DNA from: a virus
Taxonomy: Duplodnaviria > Caudoviricetes
Strand: one strand, 5' to 3'
IMG/VR virus record: IMGVR_UViG_3300049489_000417
Coordinates: 1 to 59,183 of that record
DNA length: 59,183 nt
Shown: positions 1,246-54,066 of the stretch, piece by piece
How positions within the stretch are numbered: the first letter of the stretch is position 1
Layout: every line of letters begins with the position of its first letter
Program-made: the position numbers and the translations under genes
Notes under the pieces: generated by a model
Database searches by the model: none
What the model was told of the DNA's origin: nothing
The model's input: the letters and a program-made list of their open reading frames with translations, nothing else

Positions 1246-1778
1246 CGCCACGTGAATTTAGTGTACTCCACCACTACATAGCTGACGGCCAAAAAGTAAA
1301 GATAGACACAACTAACTTCACCGGTCGCCAGCAATCAGGTATTCGTAACGGTTTAACACAAGGCTACTGGCTTTCTGCCGGCAAGATCGCATGGCTTACA
1401 GACGCTATAGCTTCGGAATACAGCGTACCGTTCGTGTACTACCGTAAAGGCCATTACTGGTCTGGCATGTACTACAACGGAGAGTTCGCCGAGCTTCCCG
1501 GGGCCACAGACGCGCTTCACGCGCTGCACATGTTCGACAGAATGGCTAATCCTGGATACTACGACCTCAACAACAGAAACAATACATACCACACCAACCG
1601 GATAGCCGAGGTACTTGAGCATCCGAAAGACTACAACCACATCCCATTTAGTCCGTATATAAGCAAGCAGCTCGGCGCGCAAATCGGTCGTGTAGTCAAA
1701 GAAGCTAAGCCTGAAAACACGCTTCAATTCCGGGACGCTTGGGATAACAACAACATCTGGATCTCGGTGACCAAATGA
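1242..1778 (+). CDS. hypothetical phage protein
   Basis: 178-aa ORF with GTGA/ATGA coupling on both sides. Confidence 0.7.
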   Translation: MTPREFSVLHHYIADGQKVKIDTTNFTGRQQSGIRNGLTQGYWLSAGKIAWLTDAIASEYSVPFVYYRKGHYWSGMYYNGEFAELPGATDALHALHMFDRMANPGYYDLNNRNNTYHTNRIAEVLEHPKDYNHIPFSPYISKQLGAQIGRVVKEAKPENTLQFRDAWDNNNIWISVTK

Positions 1779-2305
1779 TAATGATCGACATAGAAACGCT
1801 AGGTACGCGCCCTGGCTGTGTAATCCTTAGCATAGGAGCGACAGATGGCAATACGGAGTTTTACGTCGATGTTAACCCGCAATCTTGCCTGGAATCTGGC
1901 TTATCGGTTTCCTGGTCGACTATTAGTTGGTGGCTACAGCAGTCCGCCGAGGCCAGGGAAGCCATCACCAACAAGAGTGATCGCGTGGAACTGCGGAACG
2001 CACTACAGGCGCTGAGCGGGGCATTCAGCTGGGAAGGGCAGGAGGTCTGGTGCAATGGTCTTAATTTCGACATTCCCATACTCGAACATGCGTATGCAGT
2101 CGTCGGTATGGCCCCCCCATGGGCGTATAACAAGTGCCGGGATTACAGAACAGTCATTAAGCAGCTCCCGCATGCGGTTCAGGAAAAGCTACGGGTGGAA
2201 CCCAGGTTGGCGCACCATGCTCTGGAAGACGCTAAAGCTCAATTCCTATCGCTAAAGGGGGTGCTCGATGAGTACGCGCAAGCCAGAAACCACATACAGG
2301 ACTAG
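1775..2305 (+). CDS. DEDDh 3'-5' exo(ribo)nuclease (RNase AS/exonuclease VIII-like)
   Basis: MIDIETLG, WCNGLNFD, RDYRT, HHALEDA motifs. Confidence 0.9.
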   Translation: MIMIDIETLGTRPGCVILSIGATDGNTEFYVDVNPQSCLESGLSVSWSTISWWLQQSAEAREAITNKSDRVELRNALQALSGAFSWEGQEVWCNGLNFDIPILEHAYAVVGMAPPWAYNKCRDYRTVIKQLPHAVQEKLRVEPRLAHHALEDAKAQFLSLKGVLDEYAQARNHIQD

Positions 2306-3204: not shown

Positions 3205-6200
3205 TTACGCAGCTTTCAACTTAGCGATGCTGTCTGTGGCCAAGTTCAAAGCCGGGCTGAGAGCGAATGCCGGATCGTTAACCGCGCCGAGGCCCCACTC
3301 AGACGTACCGAGCAAACTAGCCTTTTTGATGGAGTACACCATCGCTTCGCCGGTAGTCATCTTGTCGATGTAGTCAGACCCAGTCAGCGTGTGCTTGAGC
3401 ACACCAGAGCCGTAGGCGAACGGTGTAGATGCAAGCAAGATCATCAATGGCGTAGCGTTGCTGTGCTCCATGTACTCGGTAAACGCGCGGCTGAGGATGA
3501 CGTCTTGGAACGCCATAGTGAACCGCTTCATATGGGCGAACAACATCCAGTGCGGGTCGTGCATCCACGGCGCGGTGTTCACTTCGTTGGGTCGTACAGC
3601 AGCGGAGTCCGCAAACGCAGCGACCGCGTTCATTATCTTCTTGCTGCCCCAGTCAATCTTGCCATCGACATCATCCTTGGTTAGCCCTAGTTCCTCGAGA
3701 TAGCGGGTGGATTCGTCTCCAGTTTTCCATGTGGCGTCTTTTGCATGACGCTCAACGAAGCCGCGCCCGGCTACAGAAGCGGCCACACGCATTTGGCGAG
3801 ACCAGCCGTCTAGCATGTTCCACTTGAAGAATACTTTCGAAGCTTTGCGCGCAAGGCCGGATGCGTTCTCACCGATGAACAGGTCGCCCATCGATTCCAT
3901 GTTGACCGTATGCTCGAGAATACCAGCATGTACGGCGTACAGCTCGTCTTCACTCAGCTGAACCGGCCCGCCGAGGCTACCTATAGTCTTTGGGAATGCG
4001 CTCATACCGGCGATGTACGCAGGGATGATGTCACCGAAGTTACCAGAGCGGGCAGCGATAGCGAACGGCTCAACCAGCGACGCGAACAGAGCAAGCGGCA
4101 GAGTCGCGAGGTTGGTAGCAACGGAGATGTTAGCCATCAGCTTGCGGACCTTCGGATCCATGTCACTACCAATACGCCCGTGCTGAGCGTCGAAGAATGT
4201 CTTAGCTGCGGCACCGACACGCGCGTTACCCTGCTTCTTAATTGCGGCGACCAAAGCTTCGGCCTTCTCAACCACCTCTTTCGGCATAACACGATGCTGA
4301 ACGGCGCGGTCTATGAGCGCGCCGAAATACAGGTCAGGATCGTACTGACGCCACTTCTGCTCCAAAGCTGGCTTTGTGAACATCTTGCTGGACTTCAAAC
4401 CAGGCATAACCGCCTTGTTGTCGACGATCTGATCCAGCGTGAGGTTCGCGTCCCGTCTACCGAACTCTAGGACGTCCGCGTTCCACGCAGCCGAATCCTT
4501 GTTGATAGCGGCGTAGTCGTACACAGGTGGGAGATCGTCCCAATCGCCGTGAAAATCCTTGATAGTGGTCATGACTTTACGCAGCTCTTTAGTTGCGTCG
4601 TCGTTGGCGGGCTGCCCGTCAAGGAGTCCTTTTAGCGCCGCGGTAACCGCATCGGTGCCGAACTTCTCTTTGTACAGGTCGTAGTCCGCACGCAAGCGGC
4701 GGTTCTCACGGATGCGCACATACGTAAGGCCGGTTGTCTTGTCCGCGTACATCTTAACGAGCTGGCGCAGCTCGGGGACGTTGTACTTGTCCGCTAGCGC
4801 AAGCGCGCTGACTTCGGCGCTTCGGAACACCTGACGAAGAGCTTCCGCAACTGGGGCCAAAGCTTTGGTGGCTCGCTCCACGATGCTGTCGAGCTGGCGA
4901 TAACCGAACTGCTTATCGACGGAGTCCATAGACCAGCCGGTCTTAGCCATGTCGCCTGAGATAAACGACTTGGCAAAGTTCTCAAACCGCATGTTCTCGG
5001 AAGTAAGTCGAAACGCCCACCGCAGGAACTTAAGCACCTTGTTCACAACGCCAGCGCTGTTATCACCGAGTGTAATCTTGCCTTGCGCAGCCAGTTCAAT
5101 AGCGTAAGCGATGCGCTCATCTACGTCGCGGCGCATAGCCGCGGATATCTTCTCGGCGTTGGGATGCCCCTCGAAGTGCTTGGCGATTTGCGACTGCAGC
5201 CAGACAGTAGACGACGCGCGGTCAAGTGTGCCGATAATGCGTTTGGCAGTGGCGTTGCCTGCGTCAGCGCGGTTACGGATCCCCGTGACCATGCGGTGCG
5301 CGGCCTCGTGCGTGAGCACGCCGTCGAGCGACGCAGCAGCGGTGGAGAACTGGATCACCTGGGTGTCTGTAACGATTTCGCCAGCTTTAGTAGGGTCACT
5401 GGTTATCTCAACACCGCGGTTCCACTCACCAAGCAGCTTATCAACGAAGGTGCTAGCGTACTTCAGCGCGTCGTCGGTAGTCTTGATCTCGTTCACCTCG
5501 GCTTCAGTGGCCTCACCGGTGTTCAGGCTCTGTTTACGCTTAGCGGTAACTACGCTTCGATTTTTCTGGGCCAGCTGAGCTAGCGACGGCTTACCTTCGC
5601 CGATCTGACCAGCTCGGTGCACGCCAACACGCGGGTTGTGCTGCTCGGGGTCGCCGACAATGCGTTTTAGCTCAGCCTTGAGCGCCGCTGCTACGGTAGT
5701 CTTGTCCGACCCCGCCTTGATCTTTTCCGCAGCGCGCAACCTTGCCGCTGTAACTTCAGCGTGTACGGGGGTAGCCTGGAGGGCGTCTATTTGTGCCTCT
5801 ATCTCCCTGACTCGTTCGCCGTTAGCGTTAACCAACCGCTTCTTGAGTCCGGCTATAGCTGACTCACGCAGCTCCGGTGTCATAAGCATCGCGTCGCTCT
5901 GCTTAACTTCCGAAGTACCAATAGGCGCTGCCGGGGCCTTCTTAGGGTCGTGCGTAATGCCCTGATTCTGTCGGATAGCAGCCTGGCGTTTAGCGTCAGC
6001 AACTTCGGAGTCGAGAAGCTTCTGAACACCAGAGTCCTTAGGAGTCGGTGCAACTTCAGCTTTCGCCATCGCAGACAGAGCAGCGTACGCATCACGTTGT
6101 GCCTGTTCGTACAACTCAGAAGTACCCGTCTCGCGCGTGAGTGGCGCTACGTCCTTGAGGGGGACCGGCTTGGTTTCTAGGGCCCCCGGCGACCGATCTC

Positions 6201-9200
6201 TAGCATACGTCTTTTTGCCAACCAGCTTGGCCATCATCTCTGCAGACTTCTCAGCCGCGTACGCGTCGCGCACGGCCAGGAGCTGCTGCCCGTACGGTAG
6301 CATAAGGATGGAGCCGTGCAGGAACGATACATCGTTAGCCAGGTCATGGATGATGCCGCGCATTTCCTGGTTAAGTTTCTCCGCCCCCAGCTGCACGAGC
6401 GCACGTACGGCTATACGCTGTTCAGGCTCAAGCTTGGCGATGTCCTGCATGACTTGAGGACGCTGGTCCTTGAACACAGTAACAAGCGACTTGGGTAAGG
6501 CAGCGCCAACTTTTTCAGCCTTGGCCACCATAGCCGCCATGGCCTGCCGCACGAGTTTGAGGTCACCGACTGTGTTACGTAGCGGATCCATGAGCATACG
6601 GCGCAGCTCAAACGGACGATCCGCCAGATCGTAAGCACCGTGGCTTATGTCTGTGGTGTCGGGGTCACCGAACGCGCTCAAGAACTCAAGCCCATCCGCA
6701 GACACCTTAGCGTTACGCGGGCGAGACCCCGTGCGGGCGACTGTCTTGGGTCTACTGTTGCGAGCGGTCTCGTTCTCCTCGAACCATGCGGCCGTGTCAA
6801 AGATGTTGTTGACGTTGTAGCCGTATTCTTTGGCAGAGATGTCGCCTTCAGGCGTGGCGGGCTCACTGTCGAGCCCGCGGTAGTACTCTGCCATGTACTC
6901 ATACAGCATCGCGTGCGCCAACAAGTCGCTTTCTTCGAGGCCAGAAGGATCAGCAAGCATCTCAGCAGACAGCTCGTCGATTGCGTTCTTGGCGTCGTCG
7001 TCGAAATTACTAGTGCCGACAACGTACTTGTTCTTGAGCCCAGCGAGCTTCTTATCAGCCTCTTTCTCGGCGTCGACCCCGCGCTTGGCGATACGCGAGA
7101 ACTTATCCTCGGGATTCGCCGCAGCGGCAGCTGGATCAGCGAGAGTCTTGAGAGGTTTAATAACCTTGTCTAGAGCACGTATTTCTTCGCTGATGCGCTG
7201 CGAGCGCTCGTAGTCCGGCTTATCCCCAGCCTCAGCCGCATCCCTCTGCTTAACAAGCTCATCTCGTTTTGCCTGCGCTGCGTCGAGTTCCTTACGCGGG
7301 CTCTTCACTGGCTTGCGGCGCTCGAGCGCACGGCGGAACTGCGCGGCCATGCTAGAGGCGTACGCTTCCATACCAGTGTTGAAATCGCGGTTGAGTCGAT
7401 TGCCGGACTGGATCACCTTGGAAAGCTCAACGATGCTGTCTTCAACACCTTTGGCATCGCCGCCGAGAGCTATACGCAACGCGCGTGTGGTCCAGCCGTG
7501 CATGTCCCCCATCTCACCGACGTTTTCACGGTAGCCGCTGATAACCTCGTCAACCGGCGGGCGCTTATCCTTGGCGACCATCTGGTAACCGCGGTACACG
7601 GCTTGGGCAATCGTTACTTTGTTTGCGTTACCGCCAAAGACACCGCGTACGGCGTTAGATACCTGCTGCACAAAGTGCGCTGGGTTCTCCCACGTCAACT
7701 CGCTGATGATGTCGAGCGCCTCAGGCGTGCGCTTCACCTCGTCGACCAGGTCATTAAGACGATACCCGTTACTGTTAAGGAACAGGAACTTGGACGAAGC
7801 TCCGCTACCAGCTACGTCGAACAGGCTGCGAACAGTACCTAGTGCTCCGCCATTTATCTCGACAAGGTCGGCTACAGCGATGTTCCGATTGGTAAGGTCA
7901 TCGCCGTCTACTTCTGGAAGATGGTCTTTGCCAATACCAAGCAGCTCTGTGAGGATAGCCACCTTCTGCGAGTGCGAAGCGGTAGCTATATCCTTCCCGT
8001 GCATAAGGCGGCTTACTATCGCAGGTATGAATTGGCCGAGCGACGGGTAGCGCTCCTGCATAACGAGCAGATCTGCTTCGTTCATGCCGGTCACGACTTC
8101 GCCTTTAGCTCCTTGGTTGCCGTAGACGGGTACGCGGGTCCACTTGGCAGCTTCAGCAAGGTCACCAGAATCGTTGCCATTGAGTGCCTTCGTAATGACC
8201 GAATTAGCTACAACCACACGGACAAACGACGGGTGCTTGCGGAGGAACTTGATTACGTCCTTACCTTGGTCCCAGTCGGCGAACCCAGCGTCGTCTTCCA
8301 GCGCGGCCAGCAAGGACCAGTCACCTACGAACGAGCTGAACTTGGCCGCGTCGAACCGAGGGGTCTTCATGGCTTCGTTAATTGACCGTACGGCTTCCGC
8401 GGGCAAACCGCTAGTAGCTGCGCTGATAGCCTGCTCACCAGCTTTCTGCGCGATAGTAAGCAGCTTGGTGAACATGGACTTGCGGCGGTCGTACGCTTTG
8501 GTACTCGGCGGAATCACACGGTTCACGAGCTGGTATCCAGACACAGTAGCCAGCGAAGCAAGGTCGTTATATCGTGCCTGCGCGGCCTTACTACCGGCTT
8601 TGCCGACCGTAGCGGAAGTGGTAGTAACCGCGCGAGCGATCTGCGGCAGCTTAGCACCGATGAGCGCAGACGGCACGGTGTTACGCAGATCGAAGTCGAC
8701 GCCACCATCACTGACAATATCGGCAGCTTCTGAGGAAGTATTTCCAGCCTCGGTATCTACGCGCTCGTCGTCGTCCAGGTCGTAGCCAAGATGTTGCCCG
8801 GCGGCGTTCTCGCTGACCACCTCACCTAGCGGAGTACTCTTCTTGGAGCGGTCCTCTGTAGTGCGTTTGGCATGGTGGACGCGAAGCGCGTCCAGTACGC
8901 GGTTCTGGATCTCCGGATCGAGCTTGGAGATGAGCTGGCGAACACGAGCCTCGCTTTGAGGGTCGAGCACGCTGCGTTGATTTGGCATACGCACGTATGC
9001 CGATTCTTGGTCTGCGGCTGCGGCAGTAGCGGTTGGATCGGCGTATGTGTTATACAGATTGTCGACGTAGTCGTTAATTGCCATCTGCCGGGAATTAGCA
9101 GAGTTCTCTACCTGCGCAACAAGCGACGCGCTCATCCACTTGGGCATGGACTTGTTGAACGCTTGATGCGTGGCTACTTCGATAGCCGTCTGTAGTTGCT

Positions 9201-11397
9201 CGCGCTGTTTGTCATTAAACGCGTCGCCGTATGGTACGTAGTCGTCGTCCCCTTCGGTCCACGGGAACGAATCAACGGTATACGCTTGCGTATTCGGCGG
9301 TCGGTTCTTATTCGCCTTGCGAACGGCTTCCGCTCTGCGGATAGTTCCGTACTTAGCAGGCGTCTTGGCCGCGACACGGCGCAGCTGCTGCTCCAACTCA
9401 GGTAGCGACGACAGTGCGCTGGTCACGATACCAGTGAGTTGCGGCGCTGCCAACCCGAGGTCTGCAAGCTCGTTGCGCTTAGCGTCTCCCTCAGGTCCGC
9501 GGAACTCAAAGACCTGGTTGATACTGTTCGCGAGCTCTGTCTGGAAGTTTGGCAGCGACTCATGAAGGTCTGGATTACTCCAAGACTCTTCTTCGACCAG
9601 CCGCTGGGCCGTGACCGGAGCCTGGCCGTACTCAATATCGTCCCGCTCGCGCGGAACTAGCGGGAGAGTCTGACCAATAGCAGGGTCATTATCAACATCG
9701 TCTTTACCACCAGTTCGCAAATCGCGCCGTACAGCGAGGTCCGCGTCAATAGCCTCGCGGTCCGTCATACCCTCGTCTGTATACCGCGTAGTGGTCGGCA
9801 GCACAGTGGTGTTGAGAGACTGTTTCGGCGTGCTCTTAGCCTTCTCAGCCACCAGGATTTGAATAGCTTCGCGCAACTTACCGGCTGCGTCGCCTTTGAC
9901 GGAGCGAGTGAACACATCCATCTGCTTACCGGCGTGGGCAAGCATCTTGGTGAGATCGTCACCAGCTGCAAGCTTCTCCCGGAACGCCGCGAGCTCCCCC
10001 GCGTAGTGCGTGCGCAGCTTCTCGTCCTTGGCGTGTGTAGCCATAGTGTCGAGGATGAACTCGAGCCCAGCGAGGCGGACCTCAGGGTCGATCTGCTCGT
10101 CACCGATGAGTCCGATAACCTTCTTCGCACGTTTGCCGCTGGTATCGAGGATGTCGTACGCGAAGTTGGTCAGGAAAGGTTTGATGGCTTCCGTGTCGTA
10201 CTTAGCCGCGGCGCCAGCCGCCCTCGCAGTAGCGCCTGCACGTTCGGCGAAGTCAATAGCAGCAGCACTAGCTGCGTCCATCGATGGATCTTCTCTGAAC
10301 GCCGCAAACCGCTCCTTCATAGCCCCGAAGGTGTCAATAGCCGATGCCCGCAGAAGATCGTACGTAGTAGACGAGCGAAGCTTCTCGTCCAGAGTCTTGG
10401 CGCCCTGCTTGGCGAAGTCGAGCGTGCTATTCGACGCGTCAATTACGCTCTCGGCAGCACCGCGTGCAGCGCCGCCCGCACCGGCGATACCAACTCCACC
10501 TGCAGCCTCGGCAGCTGCGGAGTCAACGAGCTCTTTTACGTCGAACCGGCTGGGGTCGATTTCTCCCGTCTCGGCGTACTGAACGGCACCCTGCTCAAGA
10601 GCGTTCTGGGCACCGCCAGTGAGGCCTTCTACACCGATGGCTGCACCACCCGCTTGCGCACCACGCGCGACGACGTTCGTAACCGGATTTGCAGACACGC
10701 CGAGCGTGGTACGCCCAACCTGAGTGAATGGCTTAGCAAGCCACTTAGCGCCTGCGGCAAGCGGAACGTAGTCAAGAGCAGTCTGGGCCAGACCAGCCGC
10801 CGCCGCTGTGCCGAGGTTATCAGTAGCATCGACGCCTGCTTCGCGCATGGCGGCGAGGTTGCCACCAGTCTGCGGCAAGAACGACGCGGCTGCAGCCCCG
10901 GGCATGGCTCTACCAGCAAGAGCTTTGGTCGCGAGCCCGCCACCGGCCATCTGCGCAATCGACGCCGCGCCTGAACCAGAGTTGAACGCGAGCCAGTCAG
11001 TCAGCTTACCCTGCGCAGCAGCTTCCGTGAAGCTGGACACAGACGTATCTACGTTAAACAGTGAGGCTTTATGTGCCTGTTGCTTTTGGAACGTACGAAG
11101 CCCCTGCACGATGGGGTTTTCTTTGCTAGTCAGCCGCTCCGCGGTGGTAGCCAACACATCCGCACCAGCGCCAATAGCACCATAGTTAGCGCTCTCCCAC
11201 CCCTTACCAGGCAGTGTGCTGGCCGCTGCTTCCTGCTTGAGTACAGCGTCCTCGTCAATAAGTGACGGGTAAGCTACAGGCTCTTCTGCTGGAGCTATGT
11301 AAGGTGTGGCGGTGTCTGCTCTTTCCGCCCCCATCTGCTGGGTAAGAAGCTTGTTGTACTCGGCCCCGGCACTGAGGTAGTCGCGGAGAGAAGCCAT
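3205..11397 (-). CDS. giant internal virion/ejection (polyvalent) protein with zincin-like HExxH domain
   Basis: 2730 aa, Ala/Gly-rich N-terminus, mostly helical, HEAAH at 5296-5310, no Cys seen, last gene of virion operon. Confidence 0.8.
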   Translation of the reverse strand: MASLRDYLSAGAEYNKLLTQQMGAERADTATPYIAPAEEPVAYPSLIDEDAVLKQEAAASTLPGKGWESANYGAIGAGADVLATTAERLTSKENPIVQGLRTFQKQQAHKASLFNVDTSVSSFTEAAAQGKLTDWLAFNSGSGAASIAQMAGGGLATKALAGRAMPGAAAASFLPQTGGNLAAMREAGVDATDNLGTAAAAGLAQTALDYVPLAAGAKWLAKPFTQVGRTTLGVSANPVTNVVARGAQAGGAAIGVEGLTGGAQNALEQGAVQYAETGEIDPSRFDVKELVDSAAAEAAGGVGIAGAGGAARGAAESVIDASNSTLDFAKQGAKTLDEKLRSSTTYDLLRASAIDTFGAMKERFAAFREDPSMDAASAAAIDFAERAGATARAAGAAAKYDTEAIKPFLTNFAYDILDTSGKRAKKVIGLIGDEQIDPEVRLAGLEFILDTMATHAKDEKLRTHYAGELAAFREKLAAGDDLTKMLAHAGKQMDVFTRSVKGDAAGKLREAIQILVAEKAKSTPKQSLNTTVLPTTTRYTDEGMTDREAIDADLAVRRDLRTGGKDDVDNDPAIGQTLPLVPRERDDIEYGQAPVTAQRLVEEESWSNPDLHESLPNFQTELANSINQVFEFRGPEGDAKRNELADLGLAAPQLTGIVTSALSSLPELEQQLRRVAAKTPAKYGTIRRAEAVRKANKNRPPNTQAYTVDSFPWTEGDDDYVPYGDAFNDKQREQLQTAIEVATHQAFNKSMPKWMSASLVAQVENSANSRQMAINDYVDNLYNTYADPTATAAAADQESAYVRMPNQRSVLDPQSEARVRQLISKLDPEIQNRVLDALRVHHAKRTTEDRSKKSTPLGEVVSENAAGQHLGYDLDDDERVDTEAGNTSSEAADIVSDGGVDFDLRNTVPSALIGAKLPQIARAVTTTSATVGKAGSKAAQARYNDLASLATVSGYQLVNRVIPPSTKAYDRRKSMFTKLLTIAQKAGEQAISAATSGLPAEAVRSINEAMKTPRFDAAKFSSFVGDWSLLAALEDDAGFADWDQGKDVIKFLRKHPSFVRVVVANSVITKALNGNDSGDLAEAAKWTRVPVYGNQGAKGEVVTGMNEADLLVMQERYPSLGQFIPAIVSRLMHGKDIATASHSQKVAILTELLGIGKDHLPEVDGDDLTNRNIAVADLVEINGGALGTVRSLFDVAGSGASSKFLFLNSNGYRLNDLVDEVKRTPEALDIISELTWENPAHFVQQVSNAVRGVFGGNANKVTIAQAVYRGYQMVAKDKRPPVDEVISGYRENVGEMGDMHGWTTRALRIALGGDAKGVEDSIVELSKVIQSGNRLNRDFNTGMEAYASSMAAQFRRALERRKPVKSPRKELDAAQAKRDELVKQRDAAEAGDKPDYERSQRISEEIRALDKVIKPLKTLADPAAAAANPEDKFSRIAKRGVDAEKEADKKLAGLKNKYVVGTSNFDDDAKNAIDELSAEMLADPSGLEESDLLAHAMLYEYMAEYYRGLDSEPATPEGDISAKEYGYNVNNIFDTAAWFEENETARNSRPKTVARTGSRPRNAKVSADGLEFLSAFGDPDTTDISHGAYDLADRPFELRRMLMDPLRNTVGDLKLVRQAMAAMVAKAEKVGAALPKSLVTVFKDQRPQVMQDIAKLEPEQRIAVRALVQLGAEKLNQEMRGIIHDLANDVSFLHGSILMLPYGQQLLAVRDAYAAEKSAEMMAKLVGKKTYARDRSPGALETKPVPLKDVAPLTRETGTSELYEQAQRDAYAALSAMAKAEVAPTPKDSGVQKLLDSEVADAKRQAAIRQNQGITHDPKKAPAAPIGTSEVKQSDAMLMTPELRESAIAGLKKRLVNANGERVREIEAQIDALQATPVHAEVTAARLRAAEKIKAGSDKTTVAAALKAELKRIVGDPEQHNPRVGVHRAGQIGEGKPSLAQLAQKNRSVVTAKRKQSLNTGEATEAEVNEIKTTDDALKYASTFVDKLLGEWNRGVEITSDPTKAGEIVTDTQVIQFSTAAASLDGVLTHEAAHRMVTGIRNRADAGNATAKRIIGTLDRASSTVWLQSQIAKHFEGHPNAEKISAAMRRDVDERIAYAIELAAQGKITLGDNSAGVVNKVLKFLRWAFRLTSENMRFENFAKSFISGDMAKTGWSMDSVDKQFGYRQLDSIVERATKALAPVAEALRQVFRSAEVSALALADKYNVPELRQLVKMYADKTTGLTYVRIRENRRLRADYDLYKEKFGTDAVTAALKGLLDGQPANDDATKELRKVMTTIKDFHGDWDDLPPVYDYAAINKDSAAWNADVLEFGRRDANLTLDQIVDNKAVMPGLKSSKMFTKPALEQKWRQYDPDLYFGALIDRAVQHRVMPKEVVEKAEALVAAIKKQGNARVGAAAKTFFDAQHGRIGSDMDPKVRKLMANISVATNLATLPLALFASLVEPFAIAARSGNFGDIIPAYIAGMSAFPKTIGSLGGPVQLSEDELYAVHAGILEHTVNMESMGDLFIGENASGLARKASKVFFKWNMLDGWSRQMRVAASVAGRGFVERHAKDATWKTGDESTRYLEELGLTKDDVDGKIDWGSKKIMNAVAAFADSAAVRPNEVNTAPWMHDPHWMLFAHMKRFTMAFQDVILSRAFTEYMEHSNATPLMILLASTPFAYGSGVLKHTLTGSDYIDKMTTGEAMVYSIKKASLLGTSEWGLGAVNDPAFALSPALNLATDSIAKLKAA

Positions 11398-46863: not shown

Positions 46864-46940
46864 GGGCTCGTAGCTCAGACGGTTAGAGCAAAGGACTCAT
46901 AATCCTTCGGTCCTTGGTTCGAATCCAAGCGGGCCCACCA
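46864..46940 (+). tRNA. tRNA-Ile2(CAT) (lysidine type; elongator Met not excluded)
   Basis: Full cloverleaf, GACT-CAT-AATC anticodon arm, TTCGAAT T-loop, ACCA end. Confidence 0.9.
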
Positions 46941-47648: not shown

Positions 47649-47788
47649 TTCCATCTGTCATACAAAGTGGTCACTGCCTAATTTTTAGTCAGTAAGCATT
47701 TGCTTATATTGCATGACATATAAGAATTCGTAGCTGCCTAAATTTTAGGCATGCTGCACCGCAATAAGTGTCGAAAATCCGGAAAAGC

Positions 47789-48209
47789 GGTCACCCTGGC
47801 AACATTTTAGTAGTCGTGTAACACTTTGAAGTGTAACAGCCTCAAAGCCAGTACTGGCAAGGGCGCCAGAGACGCTGACCCCCTAAAAAACAGGGTGTTA
47901 CACTTTTTTTTATTTTCAAACAAGAATATTGAATATCTAACTTTTTAGCGTGTTTTCTAACTTGTAAAAAACATGCTGAACTCGGTTTTCAAAGTGTAAC
48001 AAGTGTTACTAAATCGCTAAAACCCTTGCCACCACTGGGCCGGAGCCTGTTCCACTTCGAGGTGCTTTTGTAACCTTTTCTGTTGCCAGGGTGACCACCT
48101 TGCTTTCGAACCCCTTCGAAACCCTTGGCATTACAGCGTTTCACTGTTACACTTTGAAGTGGTCACCCTCTCATAAAACACTTACCACTCAGACCAAGTG
48201 GTCACCCAA
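47789..48209. other. probable replication origin: large imperfect inverted repeat, AT-rich core, iterated motifs
   Basis: Arms 47789-47863 and 48023-48096; repeated GTGTAACA/TGTTACAC and GTGGTCACCC; upstream of primase-helicase. Confidence 0.65.
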
Positions 48210-48225
48210 ACAGCGAGGTAGTAGC

Positions 48226-48474
48226 ATGCCGATCAAAGAAGGGAACCTTATACTGCGTTGCGTCATATCCAAAGAGGATATGGACCTGCTTCTAGGCCTT
48301 CACCCGTCGAGAAAACCGAGCCTGTGCCTCAAACAACTCTTGCGCACTGCTGCAGAGCACAATCAGTTTCTGGCTACCAAGGAAGTTGCCCGGAACAGGG
48401 CACTCAAGAAGCGCCTTCGCGAGCAAGTGCTCGCAATGGCCGACACATTAAACGAGCTGGGAGAGCGGGAATGA
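48226..48474 (+). CDS. small protein, possibly ribbon-helix-helix DNA binder
   Basis: GAGG RBS before MPIKEG; strand-helix-helix pattern. Confidence 0.6.
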   Translation: MPIKEGNLILRCVISKEDMDLLLGLHPSRKPSLCLKQLLRTAAEHNQFLATKEVARNRALKKRLREQVLAMADTLNELGERE

Positions 48475-48767: not shown

Positions 48768-51038
48768 ATGAACATCTACTTCCTGGAAGCAAAAGTACCC
48801 CTCACAAAGACTTTCAGACCAGATGGCACCTCAGACCAATACCCGCTTATCTCGAAGTTCACATCCTCGGAAGTCAGTGTCGCCTCTATCGAGGACCTCT
48901 ACGACGCCCTTGTAGCCCACAGCCAGAAGGGCCACTGTCTGCTCAAAGGCGCCCTCTCGCGCCCCCTTGTAAACGAGTCCCGCGCAGGGGCCACAGACCC
49001 TGACGCCCCCACGCAGTGGATCTGCATCGACATTGATGGCCTAACCGCCTACAAGGACCTGGACGCATGGATATCGACCACCCCGTTAGCAGACGTCTCT
49101 CATATAGTGAACTGGTCAGCGTCTTCTGGCCTGAAACCCGGCATTCGAGCCCACGTCCTCGTCTTGCTAGCTGCATTCGCCTCCCCAGCCACCATCAAGG
49201 CCTGGCTCAAATCTCTAAACCTTGGCGACGCCAATATCTCTGGGCAATTAGGCCTTACACGGGCCAAGGCCGTCATCAAGTGGGTCATAGACCCGACAGT
49301 GGCACAGAATGACAAGCTTATCTACACAACCGCTCCCGTTCTCATACCACCGCTGGCCGACCCTCACCCGGGGCTTTCCAGGTACGTACTCAATCTACGT
49401 ACCCAGCCATCGCTTACCCTGCCACCGATTGATGTTGAGAGCGTTCGCGCCGCAGAAACTAAGAAAACCAACGAACTGAGGGCCCTGGAAGGGCTCCCAG
49501 CCAAGAGGACTCACTCCTATGTACGTGCTGGCCAAGTTGAATACCTCTCAAAGCCTGGCGTCACGGCGGAAGTCACGGGCGTTAAAAAAGATAGGGGTTA
49601 CACCTATCTTAACCTTAACGGCGGTGATTCGTGGGGATACTATCATCCGGACAACGTCGTCGAGTTCCTTTATAACTTTAAGGGCGAACCGACCTATAAG
49701 CTTAAGGAAATTTGCCCCGACTACTACTCCACCGCGGTTAGTGAGCTTCAATCGACCCCGGACAAAACGGGCCGTGTCTTTTTGGCTTTTAGAGAGTTTC
49801 GAACCGGTCAATATTGGAATGGAGTCTTTGTCGCAGATAATAATTCGCTTAGTCTCGCGGCGGCCCGCAGTACTCAGCAGCTTGACCACTTCATGGCCCA
49901 GTATCAGGCCCCATGGGACGGCGTACCTAAAGACTGGTCTATCGAGTATGCCCCATCCAAGGCTAAGCGCGTGGACTTTGACCAACGAATAGTCAACACA
50001 TACGAAGCCCCTGGTCACGCCTACGATCCCAACACTCAATACACGCTTCCGCCCATAACCAAAAAGGTCATAGAACATGTTTGTGGCGACGTCCAGATTG
50101 CACAAATTTTCATTAATTGGCTCGCGTACATCGTCCAGACTAAACAGCGCCCTTCGACAGCATGGCTTTTCCACGGCACCCAAGGTACTGGTAAGGGTCT
50201 TCTTGCCAACTTCGTATTGCCTGCCCTCCTTGGCAGGGCAAATACGGCTCTACGACGCCAATCTGAACTGGAGGAGCGGTTCAACAGCTATCTCGAAGGA
50301 AAAATGGTCGTTGTGGTGGACGAAGTGCAGATGGGTGCACTATCCGGCGCTAAGCGAATCAACTCAGATATCAAAAATTACATCACAGAAGACACAATCA
50401 CCATTCGTCGTATGCGTGTGGACGGGTACTCGATTCCTAACACTTGTTCGCTAATCTTCTGTTCGAACATGCCAGATCCGGTCATCCTCGATGAGACTGA
50501 CCGGCGCATGCACATGGGCGCCTACCAGCCTAACAAGCTGCAGATCACACAAGCTGAAGTAGTCCAGCTCGAGAAAGAAGCTGAGCAACTTAACGGCTAT
50601 TTGCTGCAGTTCGCAGTAGATCCCGACAAAGCTCGATACCCACAATGGACTGAAGCCAAGAAAAATGTACTCGATCTGTCTCTATCCGGCCCTGAGGTTC
50701 TCGCTCGGGCCATTAAAGCAGGGGATTTCGCATACTTTGTTGATCAGCTACCCGATACAAGGCTTCAAACAACAATCAACCGCGAAGTCCAACTTAAAAA
50801 TTACGAGGCAACCCTGCGTGGCATTGCCAGGCGCGGAAATCATCTTACACGTGACGAGGCCCATACACTCTTCGTATGGACGCAGGGTACTGGCGAGGCC
50901 AGTACAACGAAGTTTGCAACATATCTTAAGCACCTTCGACTCGAGCTCAAGAAAATCCGTATTGACGGCCAGGTTGTTACGGCGATTCCAGTCAACTGGA
51001 ACGTTCTAGAAGCCGACAAAGCGAGGCTGGGCATATGA
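48768..51038 (+). CDS. primase-helicase (prim-pol N-terminus, SF3/DUF5906 helicase)
   Basis: CIDID and RAHV primase motifs; HGTQGTGKG Walker A, VVVDE Walker B, FCSN, DRR. Confidence 0.9.
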   Translation: MNIYFLEAKVPLTKTFRPDGTSDQYPLISKFTSSEVSVASIEDLYDALVAHSQKGHCLLKGALSRPLVNESRAGATDPDAPTQWICIDIDGLTAYKDLDAWISTTPLADVSHIVNWSASSGLKPGIRAHVLVLLAAFASPATIKAWLKSLNLGDANISGQLGLTRAKAVIKWVIDPTVAQNDKLIYTTAPVLIPPLADPHPGLSRYVLNLRTQPSLTLPPIDVESVRAAETKKTNELRALEGLPAKRTHSYVRAGQVEYLSKPGVTAEVTGVKKDRGYTYLNLNGGDSWGYYHPDNVVEFLYNFKGEPTYKLKEICPDYYSTAVSELQSTPDKTGRVFLAFREFRTGQYWNGVFVADNNSLSLAAARSTQQLDHFMAQYQAPWDGVPKDWSIEYAPSKAKRVDFDQRIVNTYEAPGHAYDPNTQYTLPPITKKVIEHVCGDVQIAQIFINWLAYIVQTKQRPSTAWLFHGTQGTGKGLLANFVLPALLGRANTALRRQSELEERFNSYLEGKMVVVVDEVQMGALSGAKRINSDIKNYITEDTITIRRMRVDGYSIPNTCSLIFCSNMPDPVILDETDRRMHMGAYQPNKLQITQAEVVQLEKEAEQLNGYLLQFAVDPDKARYPQWTEAKKNVLDLSLSGPEVLARAIKAGDFAYFVDQLPDTRLQTTINREVQLKNYEATLRGIARRGNHLTRDEAHTLFVWTQGTGEASTTKFATYLKHLRLELKKIRIDGQVVTAIPVNWNVLEADKARLGI

Positions 51039-51950: not shown

Positions 51951-52268
51951 ATGGCCCAGGTCACTCGCTATATCCACCTCCGCTTCAAGGACAGCGACGG
52001 GCGCCCTACTTCCCGAGGTGGGCTAACAGTCGCCTATCTCATCGATACCGAACTGGACTCTGTGATCCGGTGGTCAGCTGCCCGCTGTTCTTCAAACGAC
52101 AACTTCTGCAAGAGTACCGGGCGGACGATCTCACAAGGCCGGTTGCACAGCCCACGACTTAGTCGTACGATCTCGCCTTTGGCTGAGAAACTGTTTGTGA
52201 AACTGATGCACGAGACTCCGGTCAATCAGCTCTTCATCAACAGTCGGCCGATAGTGTTTATTCGCTAA
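51951..52268 (+). CDS. conserved phage protein
   Basis: GGLTVAY...ARCSSNDNFCKSTGR.I..GR motif. Confidence 0.8.
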   Translation: MAQVTRYIHLRFKDSDGRPTSRGGLTVAYLIDTELDSVIRWSAARCSSNDNFCKSTGRTISQGRLHSPRLSRTISPLAEKLFVKLMHETPVNQLFINSRPIVFIR

Positions 52269-52339
52269 TGTAGCTCAGTTGGTAGAGCAACCGCCTTGTA
52301 AGCGGTAGGCCAGTGGTTCGACCCCACTCATTAGCACCA
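52264..52339 (+). tRNA. tRNA-Thr(TGT)
   Basis: Full cloverleaf, ACCGC-CTTGTAA-GCGGT, ACCA end. Confidence 0.95.
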
Positions 52340-52347
52340 GTTTCAGA

Positions 52348-52423
52348 CGCGGGGTAGCGCAGTTGGAAGCGCGCCTGGCTCATACCCAGGAGGCCGTAGG
52401 TTCGAGTCCTACCCCCGCATCCA
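52348..52423 (+). tRNA. initiator-type tRNA-fMet(CAT)
   Basis: CGCGGGG acceptor with C1xA72 mismatch, CAT anticodon, CCA end. Confidence 0.92.
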
Positions 52424-52430
52424 GTTTTAC

Positions 52431-52508
52431 GACCGCCAATGTTCCAAGGCTCGGCGAGTTGGACTCCAAATCCGACTGTGTGGGGTTCGATTCCCTGGGT
52501 GGTCGCCA
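52431..52508 (+). tRNA. tRNA-Trp(CCA), atypical D arm
   Basis: GACCGCC/GGTGGTC acceptor, TTGGA-CTCCAAA-TCCGA, GCCA end. Confidence 0.85.
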
Positions 52509-52515
52509 CGTTTTT

Positions 52516-52877
52516 GAGTCTCATCAGCAGCGAACAAGTGAGAACTCTCAGCCCGTTCCTGGCCCGGGTTAAGCCAGGAAATTTGACTAGCTCAATGGTA
52601 GAGCGACACCCTGCTAAGGTGTATGTATCAGGTTCAATTCCTGAGTCTATGACGATGACTGACAGTCCGCCCGGGAGAGGGGATAACCCGATGAACCCGG
52701 AGACTTAAAAGGTCAACAGTCAGCGCTCAACGGTCAACCATGAACAGTCAACTTGTAACGGTAACACACTGAGGTCTAAACACCCATCGCTCTTAAAATC
52801 CTGGGTTAACGTTTTTGTGGGTTAGCTCGACAAGACCCCCACTTGTACGCCAGGCTGCTGTTTGATGAGACTCACCA
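52516..52877 (+). ncRNA. candidate large structured RNA with tRNA-like domain and heptamer array
   Basis: Perfect terminal inverted repeat 52515-52526/52863-52874 ending ACCA; further end pairings; tRNA-like D/AC/T arms 52585-52647; 7-nt repeats 52711-52765. Confidence 0.75.
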
Positions 52878-52890
52878 CACACTACACCCT

Positions 52891-53091
52891 ATGCCAGATA
52901 CCCGATTCCATGCAGAGTTCTACATCGACAAACAAGGATACCTCACAGGTCGTGTCCGCTTTCCTAAAGACGACAGCGCAACACTGGAAGCTCTCAACGC
53001 CATCATCGATGAGTACGCCAAACGACTCGAAACAAGCCACCACGACGTGATGAACCTCATACGGAGGCAGCACAATGAGTCAGAAAGTTGA
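52891..53091 (+). CDS. hypothetical protein
   Basis: Start MPDTRF right after the RNA element. Confidence 0.6.
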   Translation: MPDTRFHAEFYIDKQGYLTGRVRFPKDDSATLEALNAIIDEYAKRLETSHHDVMNLIRRQHNESES

Positions 53092-53236
53092 AGACTTGCA
53101 GAAGCAGATCGACCTTCTACGTGGCGGTCTCGAATACCTCGCTACCGAAGGTAACAGAGAAGACGCGGATCCTATGTACCTGGTTGAGATGGCAGAACAT
53201 ATCCTTGAAGAGCATAACGAACTCAAAAGGAATTGA
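53075..53236 (+). CDS. 53-aa acidic helical protein
   Basis: GGAGG RBS; MSQKVEDLQKQIDLL... Confidence 0.6.
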   Translation: MSQKVEDLQKQIDLLRGGLEYLATEGNREDADPMYLVEMAEHILEEHNELKRN

Positions 53237-53311
53237 AATGAAAACATCCGAACCGCATGGCTTGATGCTTAACGCACGCGCCGCCATCGCAAAGGCACGG
53301 GGGGAATAACC

Positions 53312-53668
53312 ATGAAAACATCTGGCTTGATCGGCCCCGCCCTTGATTGGGCAGTGGCGAAGGCTTGCTATACGGACGGCAGAACAATTTACACAGATAC
53401 AGGCATCGTCCTTATACACACCGCACCGGATAGCGGCATTCATTTTCGCTTCTCCCCGTCAATCGACTGGTCCCAAGGTGGCCCGATCATTGAGCGGGAG
53501 AAGATCAACATCCGTGATGAAGTCACATGTTGGAGTAGTTGGATGTGGGACTCAAATCGATGTGGTGATGTTTCTTATTACGGCCCTACCCCACTCATTG
53601 CAGCCATGCGCTGTTACGTTGCGTCCAAGTTGGGCGACGAGGTTGATGTACCGGAGGAACTGACATGA
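53312..53668 (+). CDS. NinX/DUF2591-family phage protein
   Basis: LDWAVAKA, FSPSIDWSQGGPIIERE, GPTPLIAAMRCYVASKLG. Confidence 0.88.
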   Translation: MKTSGLIGPALDWAVAKACYTDGRTIYTDTGIVLIHTAPDSGIHFRFSPSIDWSQGGPIIEREKINIRDEVTCWSSWMWDSNRCGDVSYYGPTPLIAAMRCYVASKLGDEVDVPEELT

Positions 53669-54066
53669 CCCCCATCCAAGACCACGCCTACCACCTACGC
53701 CAGCGCCTCATACGCGGCGACGAATCCGCCAAGCGCATGCATTTCCAAGCACTGGTGAAGATGGGCGTTGATGAGGTCGAGGCCGCGAACAGGTCCGGGT
53801 ATCACCACATCGTCCCGATTGACAAGTTCCTTCAGCGCTTCGGATGGACGCTAGTGGTCGGCTGCACATTGATCCTGCTCGGTCTGTACGCCAGTACGAC
53901 CGCTGCCAACATGGAGAACAAGGACAAGGTGCAAGAACTGACCAACCTTGAGCAAGCCGTGTACCGCTGCATGAAAGGCCAACCCATGATGATCGGTCAA
54001 GAGTGGTTCAAGTGCACCTGCCTGTCGAGTGACGACCCGAAGGGCTGCCCGGAGGAAGCGAAATGA
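53665..54066 (+). CDS. single-TM hypothetical protein
   Basis: ATGA coupling; TM segment. Confidence 0.7.
   Translation: MTPIQDHAYHLRQRLIRGDESAKRMHFQALVKMGVDEVEAANRSGYHHIVPIDKFLQRFGWTLVVGCTLILLGLYASTTAANMENKDKVQELTNLEQAVYRCMKGQPMMIGQEWFKCTCLSSDDPKGCPEEAK

What the first reader, a model, noticed from the sequence alone, without database searches (positions are those of the whole stretch)
52516..52877. Candidate new ~362-nt RNA in the tRNA cluster, closed by an acceptor-like stem ending in ACCA
Seen: 7 nt after tRNA-Trp, GAGTCTCATCA (52516-26) pairs perfectly with TGATGAGACTC (52863-73), which is followed by A-CCA (52874-77), like a tRNA acceptor end. The closing helix continues inward via GCAGC/GCTGC and ACAAGTG/CACTTGT. 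The 3'-side bulge CCAGG (~52850) can pair with CCTGG (~52800), a possible pseudoknot. Inside are an 8-bp hairpin (TTCCTGGC/GCCAGGAA), a tRNA-like domain, a CCGGG/CCCGG multiloop and a heptamer array. No convincing ORF covers it. Inference: one discrete ncRNA matured by tRNA-processing enzymes; it does not fit tmRNA, RNase P, SRP or 6S architecture.
Basis: partly seen in the sequence, partly recalled or inferred. Interest (0 to 1): 0.92.

Follow-up and report, generated by a model that had tools for sequence, protein, structure and literature searches.

The report
Orphan tRNA-ended phage RNA candidate
A 362-base non-coding stretch at the end of a phage's tRNA gene cluster has ends that pair like a tRNA acceptor stem and finish in ACCA, with a tRNA-shaped module inside, but it has no detectable relatives, so it is not yet shown to be a working RNA.

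Summary
A perfect 11-12 bp helix (52515/16-52526 with 52863-52873/74) starts 7 nt after tRNA-Trp and is followed by A-CCA. It encloses an 8-bp hairpin, a tRNA-like cloverleaf (52581-52653; Rfam tRNA 50.4 bits; acceptor only 4 of 7 pairs, no CCA) and a weak heptamer array. No ORF covers it, and no Rfam family other than tRNA matches.

A helix of this strength is not rare in a 59-kb sequence. Its position is rare: I expect 0.003 such helix+NCCA elements next to the window's five tRNAs. The 209-nt interior folds no better than shuffled sequence, so an ornate fold is not supported.

I found no homologue in GenBank phages, plasmids, 166 IMG/VR and metagenome loci, or word scans. The one close relative's contig ends before the region.

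My best reading (0.4) is an RNA cut out of the tRNA-operon transcript by RNase P and 3' trimming, of the same kind as phage T4 rnaC/rnaD. Rivals are a decayed tRNA with a chance repeat, a cis processing stem, or a DNA-level site. Interest is moderate.

The parts
52264..52339 (+). tRNA-Thr(UGU), encoded CCA. First gene of the cluster.
   Evidence: ARAGORN; Rfam tRNA 74.6 bits
52348..52423 (+). Initiator-like tRNA-Met(CAU) with a C1/A72 mismatch and encoded CCA. 8-nt spacer before it.
   Evidence: alignment marks the first pair as non-standard
52431..52508 (+). Non-canonical tRNA-Trp(CCA), 78 nt, encoded CCA. 7-nt spacer before it.
   Evidence: ARAGORN. Not reported by the Rfam tRNA model at its gathering score; 27.5 bits to tRNA-Sec.
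52509..52515 (+). 7-nt T-rich spacer (CGTTTTT). T52515 can pair with A52874.
52516..52526 (+). 5' strand of the closing helix (GAGTCTCATCA). Proposed mature 5' end at G52516.
   Evidence: pair probabilities 0.92-1.0 for the first 10 pairs
52527..52540 (+). 5' strands of the helix extension: GCAGC (52527-31) and ACAAGTG (52534-40).
   Evidence: 20 of 1000 shuffles as good. ACAAGTG pairing is disfavoured in the ensemble.
52556..52580 (+). Hairpin TTCCTGGC / GCCAGGAA with a 9-nt loop CCGGGTTAA.
   Evidence: 7 of its 8 pairs appear in the fold of the isolated 54-nt piece. It is replaced by long-range pairs in the full-length MFE.
52581..52653 (+). tRNA-like cloverleaf with anticodon GCU and a short variable loop. 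D, anticodon and T arms are perfect. The acceptor has 4 of 7 pairs and there is no CCA.
52671..52700 (+). Local hairpin CCGGG...CCCGG with an inner GGG/CCC.
52710..52767 (+). Degenerate heptamer array (NNTCAAC-like, about 8 units; three exact GTCAAC in register).
   Evidence: TRF (52711-38, score 35; GTCAAC at 52712, 52733, 52747)
52840..52858 (+). 3' strands of the helix extension: CACTTGT (52840-46) and GCTGC (52854-58). An alternative register is GCUGU at 52857-61.
52863..52873 (+). 3' strand of the closing helix (TGATGAGACTC).
52874..52877 (+). A-CCA: a discriminator-like A plus an encoded CCA. Proposed mature 3' end.
52893..53091 (+). Next ORF (66 aa from the ATG), 15 nt after the CCA. 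No Shine-Dalgarno, no homologue, negative codon score. Marks the downstream limit of the non-coding stretch.

Best explanation
The last member of this phage's tRNA operon is a non-coding RNA of about 362 nt (52516-52877).

What the sequence shows: its two ends form an 11-12 bp helix with a G at the 5' end and A-CCA at the 3' end. This is the length and format of a tRNA acceptor/T minihelix.

What I infer, none of it shown here:
- It is co-transcribed with tRNA-Thr, tRNA-Met and tRNA-Trp.
- RNase P cuts it at G52516.
- Its 3' end is trimmed back to the encoded CCA, as for its neighbours.
- The helix then protects both ends, so the piece persists as a separate RNA.

Inside, it displays a complete D/anticodon/T cloverleaf (anticodon GCU) that cannot act as a tRNA by itself, because its acceptor stem is broken and it has no CCA. 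About 200 nt of poorly structured, A/C-rich sequence with heptamer repeats follows.

The function is a guess. I think a decoy or sponge is most likely. The cloverleaf and the single-stranded repeats would hold a host factor that binds or cuts tRNA, and the tRNA-like ends would give the RNA stability and CCA repair.
For: - The helix is real and dominant in the ensemble.
- It starts 7 nt after the CCA of tRNA-Trp. The two preceding spacers are 8 and 7 nt.
- It ends in A-CCA. All four ordinary tRNAs of the window also encode CCA.
- A perfect helix of 10 bp or more followed by NCCA, beginning within -3..+20 nt of a tRNA 3' end, is expected 0.0027 times for the window's five tRNAs. It is seen at 1 of 38 tRNAs in 1.97 Mb, and that one is this case.
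- The helix extension beats 980 of 1000 shuffles.
- The whole piece folds better than 100 of 100 shuffles (z -3.76).
- It lies on the same strand as all flanking genes. No promoter-like or terminator-like site is predicted on the + strand between the cluster and the next ORF.
- No ORF covers it and there is no coding signal.
- All three mismatches of the inner cloverleaf fall in its acceptor stem, while the other 14 stem pairs are intact. That does not look like random decay.
- Precedent: in phage T4 the stable RNAs rnaD and rnaC follow tRNA-Arg by 1 and 6 nt. rnaC folds with paired ends and a T-arm-like hairpin. Their roles are unknown (PMC3014915, passage read).
- GOLLD and ROOL RNAs of phages lie near tRNA islands, and tRNAs sometimes sit in the GOLLD linker (bioRxiv 10.1101/2024.12.08.627333, passages read).
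Against: - No homologue was found, so there is no covariation. Searches: GenBank phages, plasmids, 83 + 83 loci, word scans.
- A helix of this strength is not exceptional in 59 kb. 40 of 40 shuffles contain a repeat with a better arm energy.
- The 209-nt interior folds no better than shuffles (z +1.09). The 5' linker does not either (z -0.51).
- The minus strand folds almost as well (z -2.98), and every helix named is pure Watson-Crick. The fold alone therefore does not pick a strand.
- The finding was picked by eye from a scan said to cover some 250,000 windows (a figure from a tool description, not a call). A per-window expectation of 0.003 will occur by chance somewhere in such a scan.
- T52515 can pair with A52874. 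This could blur RNase P site choice (established knowledge of RNase P, not tested here).
Confidence: 0.4

Rival explanations
1. Relic. The stretch is a decaying tRNA gene (52581-52653) plus spacer DNA with no function of its own. The terminal inverted repeat and the ACCA after it are chance, or left over from a rearrangement.
For: - Repeats of this strength occur in every shuffle of the window (40 of 40).
- The interior is not more structured than random.
- No relative keeps the element.
- The tRNA-like module has a broken acceptor stem and no CCA, as a pseudogene might.
- Selection by eye from many windows inflates coincidences.
Against: - The joint event (start 7 nt after a tRNA, helix of 10 bp or more, NCCA) is expected 0.0027 times per window, and the helix extension adds p of about 0.02.
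- All three mismatches of the cloverleaf fall in one of its four stems.
- The flanks and interior show no significant likeness to the neighbouring tRNAs. The best of 15 comparisons has p of about 0.05, so there is no sign of further decayed copies.
- About 290 nt of functionless DNA is unusual in a tightly packed phage genome (inference).
Confidence: 0.25
2. Cis-acting processing element. The long-range stem (11 + 5 + 7 bp with bulges) is a cutting site for RNase III or RNase P. It separates the tRNA precursor from the downstream mRNA, or stabilises the 3' end of the tRNA transcript. The excised piece is a short-lived by-product with no role in trans.
For: - The stem lies exactly between the last tRNA and the next ORF, which starts 15 nt after it and has no Shine-Dalgarno.
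- The stem is 16-23 bp with small bulges.
- The interior is unstructured.
- Long-range stems that flank rRNAs and phage early transcripts are known RNase III sites (established knowledge, not tested here).
Against: - This does not explain the encoded A-CCA, the tRNA-length spacer, or the intact cloverleaf arms inside.
- A processing site does not need about 340 nt between its strands.
Confidence: 0.2
3. DNA-level element. The heptamer array and the inverted repeats are binding sites for a phage or host DNA-binding protein, such as a second replication site for the neighbouring primase-helicase or an operator array. They are not RNA structure.
For: - The tandem heptamers have three exact GTCAAC in register.
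- The element lies 1.5 kb downstream of the primase-helicase gene.
- All helices are pure Watson-Crick, and the minus strand folds nearly as well.
- The lowest point of cumulative GC skew in the window is the 52001-54000 bin.
Against: - The phage's clear iteron and repeat region is elsewhere (47650-48230), with different motifs: AAGTGGTCACCC in four direct copies and TGTAACA in five. None of these occurs in the element.
- GTCAAC is not enriched in the window (29 matches against 32.5 expected).
- This does not explain the tRNA-like placement, the CCA, or the + strand cloverleaf.
Confidence: 0.1

Closest known systems
Phage T4 small stable RNAs rnaC (species 1, 139 nt) and rnaD (species 2, 119 nt)
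   Same: - They are encoded at the downstream end of a phage tRNA cluster, on the same strand, 1 and 6 nt after the preceding RNA gene.
- rnaC folds with paired 5' and 3' ends and a T-arm-like hairpin (CCGGG-UUCGAAU-CCCGG), z -4.57.
- Rfam has no family for them.
- Their function is unknown (PMC3014915, passage read).
   Different: - The candidate is about 2.6 times longer than rnaC.
- It carries a whole cloverleaf rather than a T arm.
- Its terminal helix is a perfect 11-12 bp followed by an encoded CCA. The annotated rnaC end is not followed by CCA.
- There is no sequence likeness: 46 of 300 and 279 of 300 shuffles score as well.
GOLLD and ROOL RNAs (large ornate phage/prophage RNAs)
   Same: They are phage-borne, often lie near tRNA islands, and tRNAs are sometimes embedded in the GOLLD linker (bioRxiv 10.1101/2024.12.08.627333, passages read).
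   Different: - There is no match to either Rfam model, even at E<=10.
- 362 nt against many GOLLD members above 800 nt (same paper).
- The interior here is not unusually structured, whereas those families are defined by extensive covarying structure.
tmRNA
   Same: It is a tRNA-like acceptor end with A-CCA closing a roughly 360-nt RNA, and it is matured by tRNA-processing enzymes (established knowledge).
   Different: - Not detected by ARAGORN or Rfam.
- The T arm is not next to the 3' acceptor strand; it sits 218 nt upstream.
- The third pair is G-C, not G-U.
- I could not recognise a tag reading frame.
Bacterial Y RNA (YrlA)
   Same: A long stem made by the two ends plus a tRNA-mimicking module. 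For PMC4201824 I saw only the title and the start of the abstract in the search listing; the details are recalled.
   Different: - No Rfam match.
- Recalled YrlA size is about 100-120 nt.
- No TROVE/Ro domain in the 30 ORFs I scanned with Pfam. Other ORFs of the window were not scanned.

Membership tests
tRNA (Rfam RF00005), applied to the inner module 52581-52653 | Cloverleaf with D, anticodon and T arms scoring above the gathering score | tested here: met
   50.4 bits against a gathering score of 29. ARAGORN calls it tRNA-Ser(gct).
tRNA (Rfam RF00005), applied to the inner module 52581-52653 | 7-bp acceptor stem with a 3' NCCA (encoded in all other tRNAs of this phage) | tested here: not met
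   4 of 7 pairs; followed by A-CGA, not CCA.
tRNA-Ser (bacterial class II) | Long variable arm | tested here: not met
   5-nt variable loop, 73 nt in all. That bacterial tRNA-Ser needs a long arm is established knowledge.
tmRNA | Detected by ARAGORN or the Rfam tmRNA models; T arm next to the 3' acceptor strand; G3-U70 | tested here: not met
   0 tmRNA genes. No Rfam hit at E<=10. No T arm before 52863, and the third pair is G-C.
RNase P RNA / 6S / SRP RNA | Match to the Rfam covariance models | tested here: not met
   No match at E<=10 in 52200-53000, both strands.
GOLLD / ROOL | Match to the Rfam covariance models | tested here: not met
   No match at E<=10.
GOLLD / ROOL | Phage-borne, beside a tRNA island | tested here: met
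   Virus record; directly follows three tRNAs.
T4 rnaC/rnaD-type tRNA-cluster RNAs | Non-coding RNA gene at the downstream end of a phage tRNA cluster, same strand, tRNA-length spacer | tested here: met
   7-nt spacer here. 1 and 6 nt in T4.
T4 rnaC/rnaD-type tRNA-cluster RNAs | Sequence homology to rnaC or rnaD | tested here: not met
   Local alignment no better than shuffles: 46 of 300 and 279 of 300.
T4 rnaC/rnaD-type tRNA-cluster RNAs | Accumulates as a discrete stable RNA in infected cells | not testable with these tools
   Uncultured phage. No RNA data could be laid (see Tried and rejected).
Self-cleaving ribozymes (hammerhead and others) | Match to the Rfam models. The minus strand of 52516-31 reads CTGATGAG, the hammerhead core word (recalled). 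| tested here: not met
   No ribozyme family at E<=10 on either strand.

The most novel reading that the evidence does not exclude
This is a 'tRNA within a tRNA': a new class of phage RNA. Its own ends are a working acceptor/T minihelix, cut by RNase P and kept intact, or even charged, through its CCA end. It uses that stability to display an uncleavable or uncharged cloverleaf (anticodon GCU) and a single-stranded heptamer platform. Together these act as a decoy that soaks up a host tRNA-targeting defence nuclease or another tRNA-binding factor during infection.
Probability: 0.12. Interest if true: 0.8.

Novelty: new variant of a known kind. Interest (0 to 1): 0.4.

Why it matters
Phage tRNA islands repeatedly carry extra RNAs whose roles are still unknown: T4 rnaC/rnaD for fifty years, GOLLD and ROOL more recently. 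If this one is real, it would be a compact and unusually readable case. It has tRNA-style ends, a complete but disabled cloverleaf, and an unstructured repeat tract. That layout suggests direct tests: RNase P cleavage, CCA repair, and binding of tRNA-directed defence nucleases. It would also link such RNAs to the current question of why phages carry tRNA genes. As it stands it is a single sequence from an uncultured phage of a freshwater-sediment metagenome, so for now its value is as a lead.

Tried and rejected
**Homologue searches (all empty for the element)**
- blastn of 52200-52950 and of 52509-52890 against GenBank phages. 403 and 53 records matched, but only over the tRNAs or the tRNA-like module. 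At most 20% and 16% of the query was covered in the rows listed, and no record covered 80% or more.
- blastn against plasmids: 1 record, tRNA-like module only.
- The window's own record: 1 copy.
- blastn and nhmmer against 83 loci (L002-L084; 80 of them around primase relatives). Best E 0.37 over 25 nt.
- The same against 83 further loci, 80 of them around NinX-like relatives. Best E 0.21 over 16 nt.
- Exact 25-mer of the 5' end in IMG/VR: 0 hits.
- Exact 19-mer of the 3' end in IMG/VR: 1 hit. It lies inside an ORF of a GC-rich contig, where it reads ...FDETHH... I judge it chance; I estimate about 0.4 expected, an estimate of my own.
- Exact 22-mer of the tRNA-like module in genome contigs: 0 hits.
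- A degenerate pattern for a short-arm GCU tRNA in IMG/VR: 1 hit (L087). It is an intact 74-nt tRNA in another phage's cluster, with no similar surroundings.

**Protein anchors**
- The 212-aa protein: no relative in IMG/VR by single-protein patterns.
- The 105-aa protein: only itself in the 5.8-billion protein set, and 4 distant phage hits. In DES1 and ANB28 tRNAs lie nearby, but no similar element does.
- The 82-aa frame after the element: no phage hit.
- Primase: one close relative (87%, P0002/L005), the rest 41% or less. Its 15,979-b record ends inside the 212-aa gene.
- The metagenome scan returned only a 38% relative on a 4-kb contig.

**Sequencing runs**
- One DNA run of a freshwater sediment metagenome holds the stretch. 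No RNA holder is listed.
- Its contigs are identical to the window over 52280-53300 (0 other letters in the 1104-nt contig). No natural variation was available.

**Ideas considered and dropped**
- attP or a tRNA 3' half: no T arm precedes the 3' strand.
- A split or intron-bearing tRNA: the outer parts do not make D or T arms.
- A MITE: single copy, no target duplication seen.
- A hammerhead: the CTGATGAG word is on the minus strand, but there is no Rfam hit.
- Decayed tRNA copies in the interior.
- A covariance model of the 362-nt element: not built. There is a single sequence, and the length is above what the tool's calibration limit allows.

Full report
**What the window is.**
- The window is a whole IMG/VR virus record of 59,183 b, classed as linear and about 77% complete.
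- Structural genes lie on the minus strand: portal, large terminase and capsid.
- Small early/replication genes lie on the plus strand from about 41 kb.
- The primase-helicase (48768-51038, DUF5906) is 38% identical to that of Pseudomonas phage KPP25, the nearest cultured relative.
- Most of these relatives have no tRNA cluster after the primase gene. Seven of the 81 loci around primase relatives that I scanned hold any tRNA.

**The observation.**
- ARAGORN finds tRNA-Thr (52264-339), tRNA-Met (52348-423), tRNA-Trp (52431-508) and a 'tRNA-Ser(gct)' (52581-653).
- The first three end in an encoded CCA and are separated by 8 and 7 nt.
- Seven nt after the CCA of tRNA-Trp, GAGTCTCATCA begins. Its perfect complement TGATGAGACTC lies at 52863-73 and is followed by A-CCA.
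- T52515 and A52874 make the repeat 12 nt.
- The first 10 pairs have probability 0.92-1.0 in the Boltzmann ensemble.
- GCAGC/GCTGC, ACAAGTG/CACTTGT, the 8-bp hairpin, CCGGG/CCCGG and the heptamer tract are all present.
- The energy model prefers local hairpins to ACAAGTG/CACTTGT, and TRF scores the heptamers only 35.
- No ORF of substance covers the stretch, and codon scores are near zero in all six frames.

**Is it more than chance?**
- As a bare inverted repeat, no. Every one of 40 dinucleotide shuffles of the window contains a repeat of 10 nt or more within 30-600 nt whose 36-nt arms pair at least as well as these (-33.7 kcal/mol). The window does have more perfect repeats of 12 nt or more (7) than the shuffles (mean 1.9).
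- The position is the argument. In 167 sequences (1.97 Mb, both strands, 38 tRNAs) there are 90 perfect helices of 10 bp or more, with 60-700 nt between strands, followed by NCCA. That rate predicts 0.0027 such elements within -3..+20 nt of the window's five tRNA 3' ends, and 0.021 for all 38 tRNAs. The only one observed is this one.
- The helix extension just inside the seed is matched or beaten by 20 of 1000 shuffles. Longer arms are not significant.
- Against this, the finding was selected by eye from a very large scan, so an event of this size will turn up by chance now and then.
- I put the chance reading at roughly a quarter.

**The inside.**
- The tRNA-like module scores 50.4 bits on the Rfam tRNA model.
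- Its D, anticodon and T stems are perfect. Its acceptor stem has three mismatches in seven pairs, and no CCA follows.
- The anticodon is GCU, but the variable loop is short, so it is not a bacterial-type tRNA-Ser.
- The 54 nt before it and the 209 nt after it fold no better than shuffled sequence (z -0.51 and +1.09).
- The good z-score of the whole piece (-3.76) therefore comes from the terminal pairing and the cloverleaf, not from an ornate interior.
- The minus strand also folds well (z -2.98).
- The interior shows no significant likeness to the neighbouring tRNAs, so it is not a row of decayed tRNA copies.

**Known families.**
- Rfam release 15 gives nothing within 52516-52877 but the tRNA hit, even at E<=10 with permissive filters.
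- ARAGORN finds no tmRNA.
- tmRNA, RNase P RNA, 6S, SRP, GOLLD, ROOL, Y RNA and the self-cleaving ribozymes are therefore not supported as memberships.

**Relatives.**
- I found none. The searches are listed under Tried and rejected.
- The one phage with an 87% identical primase is known only from a 15,979-b record that stops inside the 212-aa gene, about 1 kb short of the tRNA cluster.
- The single sequencing run that holds the stretch gives identical contigs.

**Closest precedent.**
- In phage T4 the annotated stable RNAs rnaD and rnaC follow tRNA-Arg by 1 and 6 nt on the same strand.
- rnaC folds (z -4.57) with paired ends and a T-arm-like hairpin.
- Rfam has no model for either, so silence from Rfam does not exclude this kind of RNA.
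- A review states that their roles are unknown (PMC3014915, passage read).
- GOLLD and ROOL are phage RNAs often found near tRNA islands, and tRNAs sometimes sit in the GOLLD linker (bioRxiv 10.1101/2024.12.08.627333, passages read).
- The present element has no sequence likeness to rnaC or rnaD. It differs in size, in carrying a whole cloverleaf, and in its perfect helix with an encoded CCA.

**Mechanism.**
- Shown: the anatomy.
- Inferred:
  - co-transcription with the tRNAs, because the element is on the same strand and no + strand promoter-like or terminator-like site is predicted between them;
  - RNase P cleavage before G52516;
  - exonucleolytic trimming to the CCA;
  - persistence of the helix-closed RNA.
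- Guessed: a decoy or sponge role for the disabled cloverleaf and the single-stranded heptamers.
- Rivals are a relic (0.25), a purely cis-acting processing stem (0.2), and a DNA-level protein-binding array (0.1). The last is weakened because the phage's obvious iteron/repeat region lies at 47650-48230 and uses other motifs.

**Verdict.** This is a real and oddly well-placed sequence feature with a plausible tRNA-style maturation route. It is an orphan: no homologue, no covariation and no expression data. Interest is 0.4. If real, it is a new variant of the known kind 'extra RNAs of phage tRNA clusters'.

Noticed in passing
window 47650-48230: A roughly 580-nt intergenic region upstream of the primase-helicase operon, packed with repeats. 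AAGTGGTCACCC-like occurs four times direct plus inverted copies. TGTAACACTTTGAAGTG-like occurs three times. Inverted repeats reach 42 nt (76%), 21 nt (90%) and 14 nt (100%). GC content is low. It looks like an origin or operator region.
   Followed up: partly
window 52431-52508: tRNA-Trp(CCA) is non-canonical. It has 78 nt, a 4-bp T stem, a 6-bp anticodon stem and a weak D stem. The Rfam tRNA model does not report it at its gathering score, and it scores 27.5 bits on tRNA-Sec. It may be one of the unusual cloverleaf types described for bacteria and phages (PMC5389517, abstract start seen only).
   Followed up: partly
window 52348-52423: The tRNA-Met has a C1/A72 mismatch, as bacterial initiator tRNAs do (a recalled property). 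The phage also has a second, elongator-type tRNA-Met at 46864-46940.
   Followed up: no
window 1775-2305 (+): A 176-aa ORF matches the Rv2179c-like 3'-5' exoribonuclease domain (PF16473, E 1e-38). An RNase T-like enzyme in a phage whose tRNAs all encode CCA could be relevant to 3' end trimming. Not pursued.
   Followed up: no
window 52893-53091 (+): The ORF right after the element has no Shine-Dalgarno sequence, a negative in-frame codon score (-0.59, with other frames positive), no PHROG hit and no phage homologue. The non-coding stretch may therefore extend to about 53070.
   Followed up: partly
window 51951-52268 (+); L085, L086: The stop codon of the 105-aa ORF lies inside the first bases of tRNA-Thr. 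Its only detectable relatives (36-43% identity) are in Xanthomonas and Stenotrophomonas phages. In both that I inspected (DES1, ANB28) they also sit beside tRNA genes.
   Followed up: partly
L087 2995-3068 (-) and 2832-2916 (-): Another IMG/VR phage contig carries a 74-nt short-variable-arm tRNA with anticodon GCU. It lies 78 nt from a normal long-arm tRNA-Ser(GCU). Spacers of about 340 nt in that tRNA cluster are unexplained.
   Followed up: no
L086 4182-4400 (Stenotrophomonas phage ANB28): About 200 nt of non-coding sequence follows tRNA-Pro. It has three copies of a CCTC/CACCT-AGATAMA-like motif and ends in a strong terminator hairpin. This may be another tRNA-cluster RNA.
   Followed up: no
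window 3205-11397 (-): A 2730-aa ORF has no Pfam match at E<=0.001. Seven other large minus-strand ORFs have none either.
   Followed up: no
window 52001-54000: The cumulative GC skew of the window reaches its minimum in this bin and rises after 54 kb. The amplitude is small, and the turn coincides with an HNH endonuclease gene of lower GC content.
   Followed up: no
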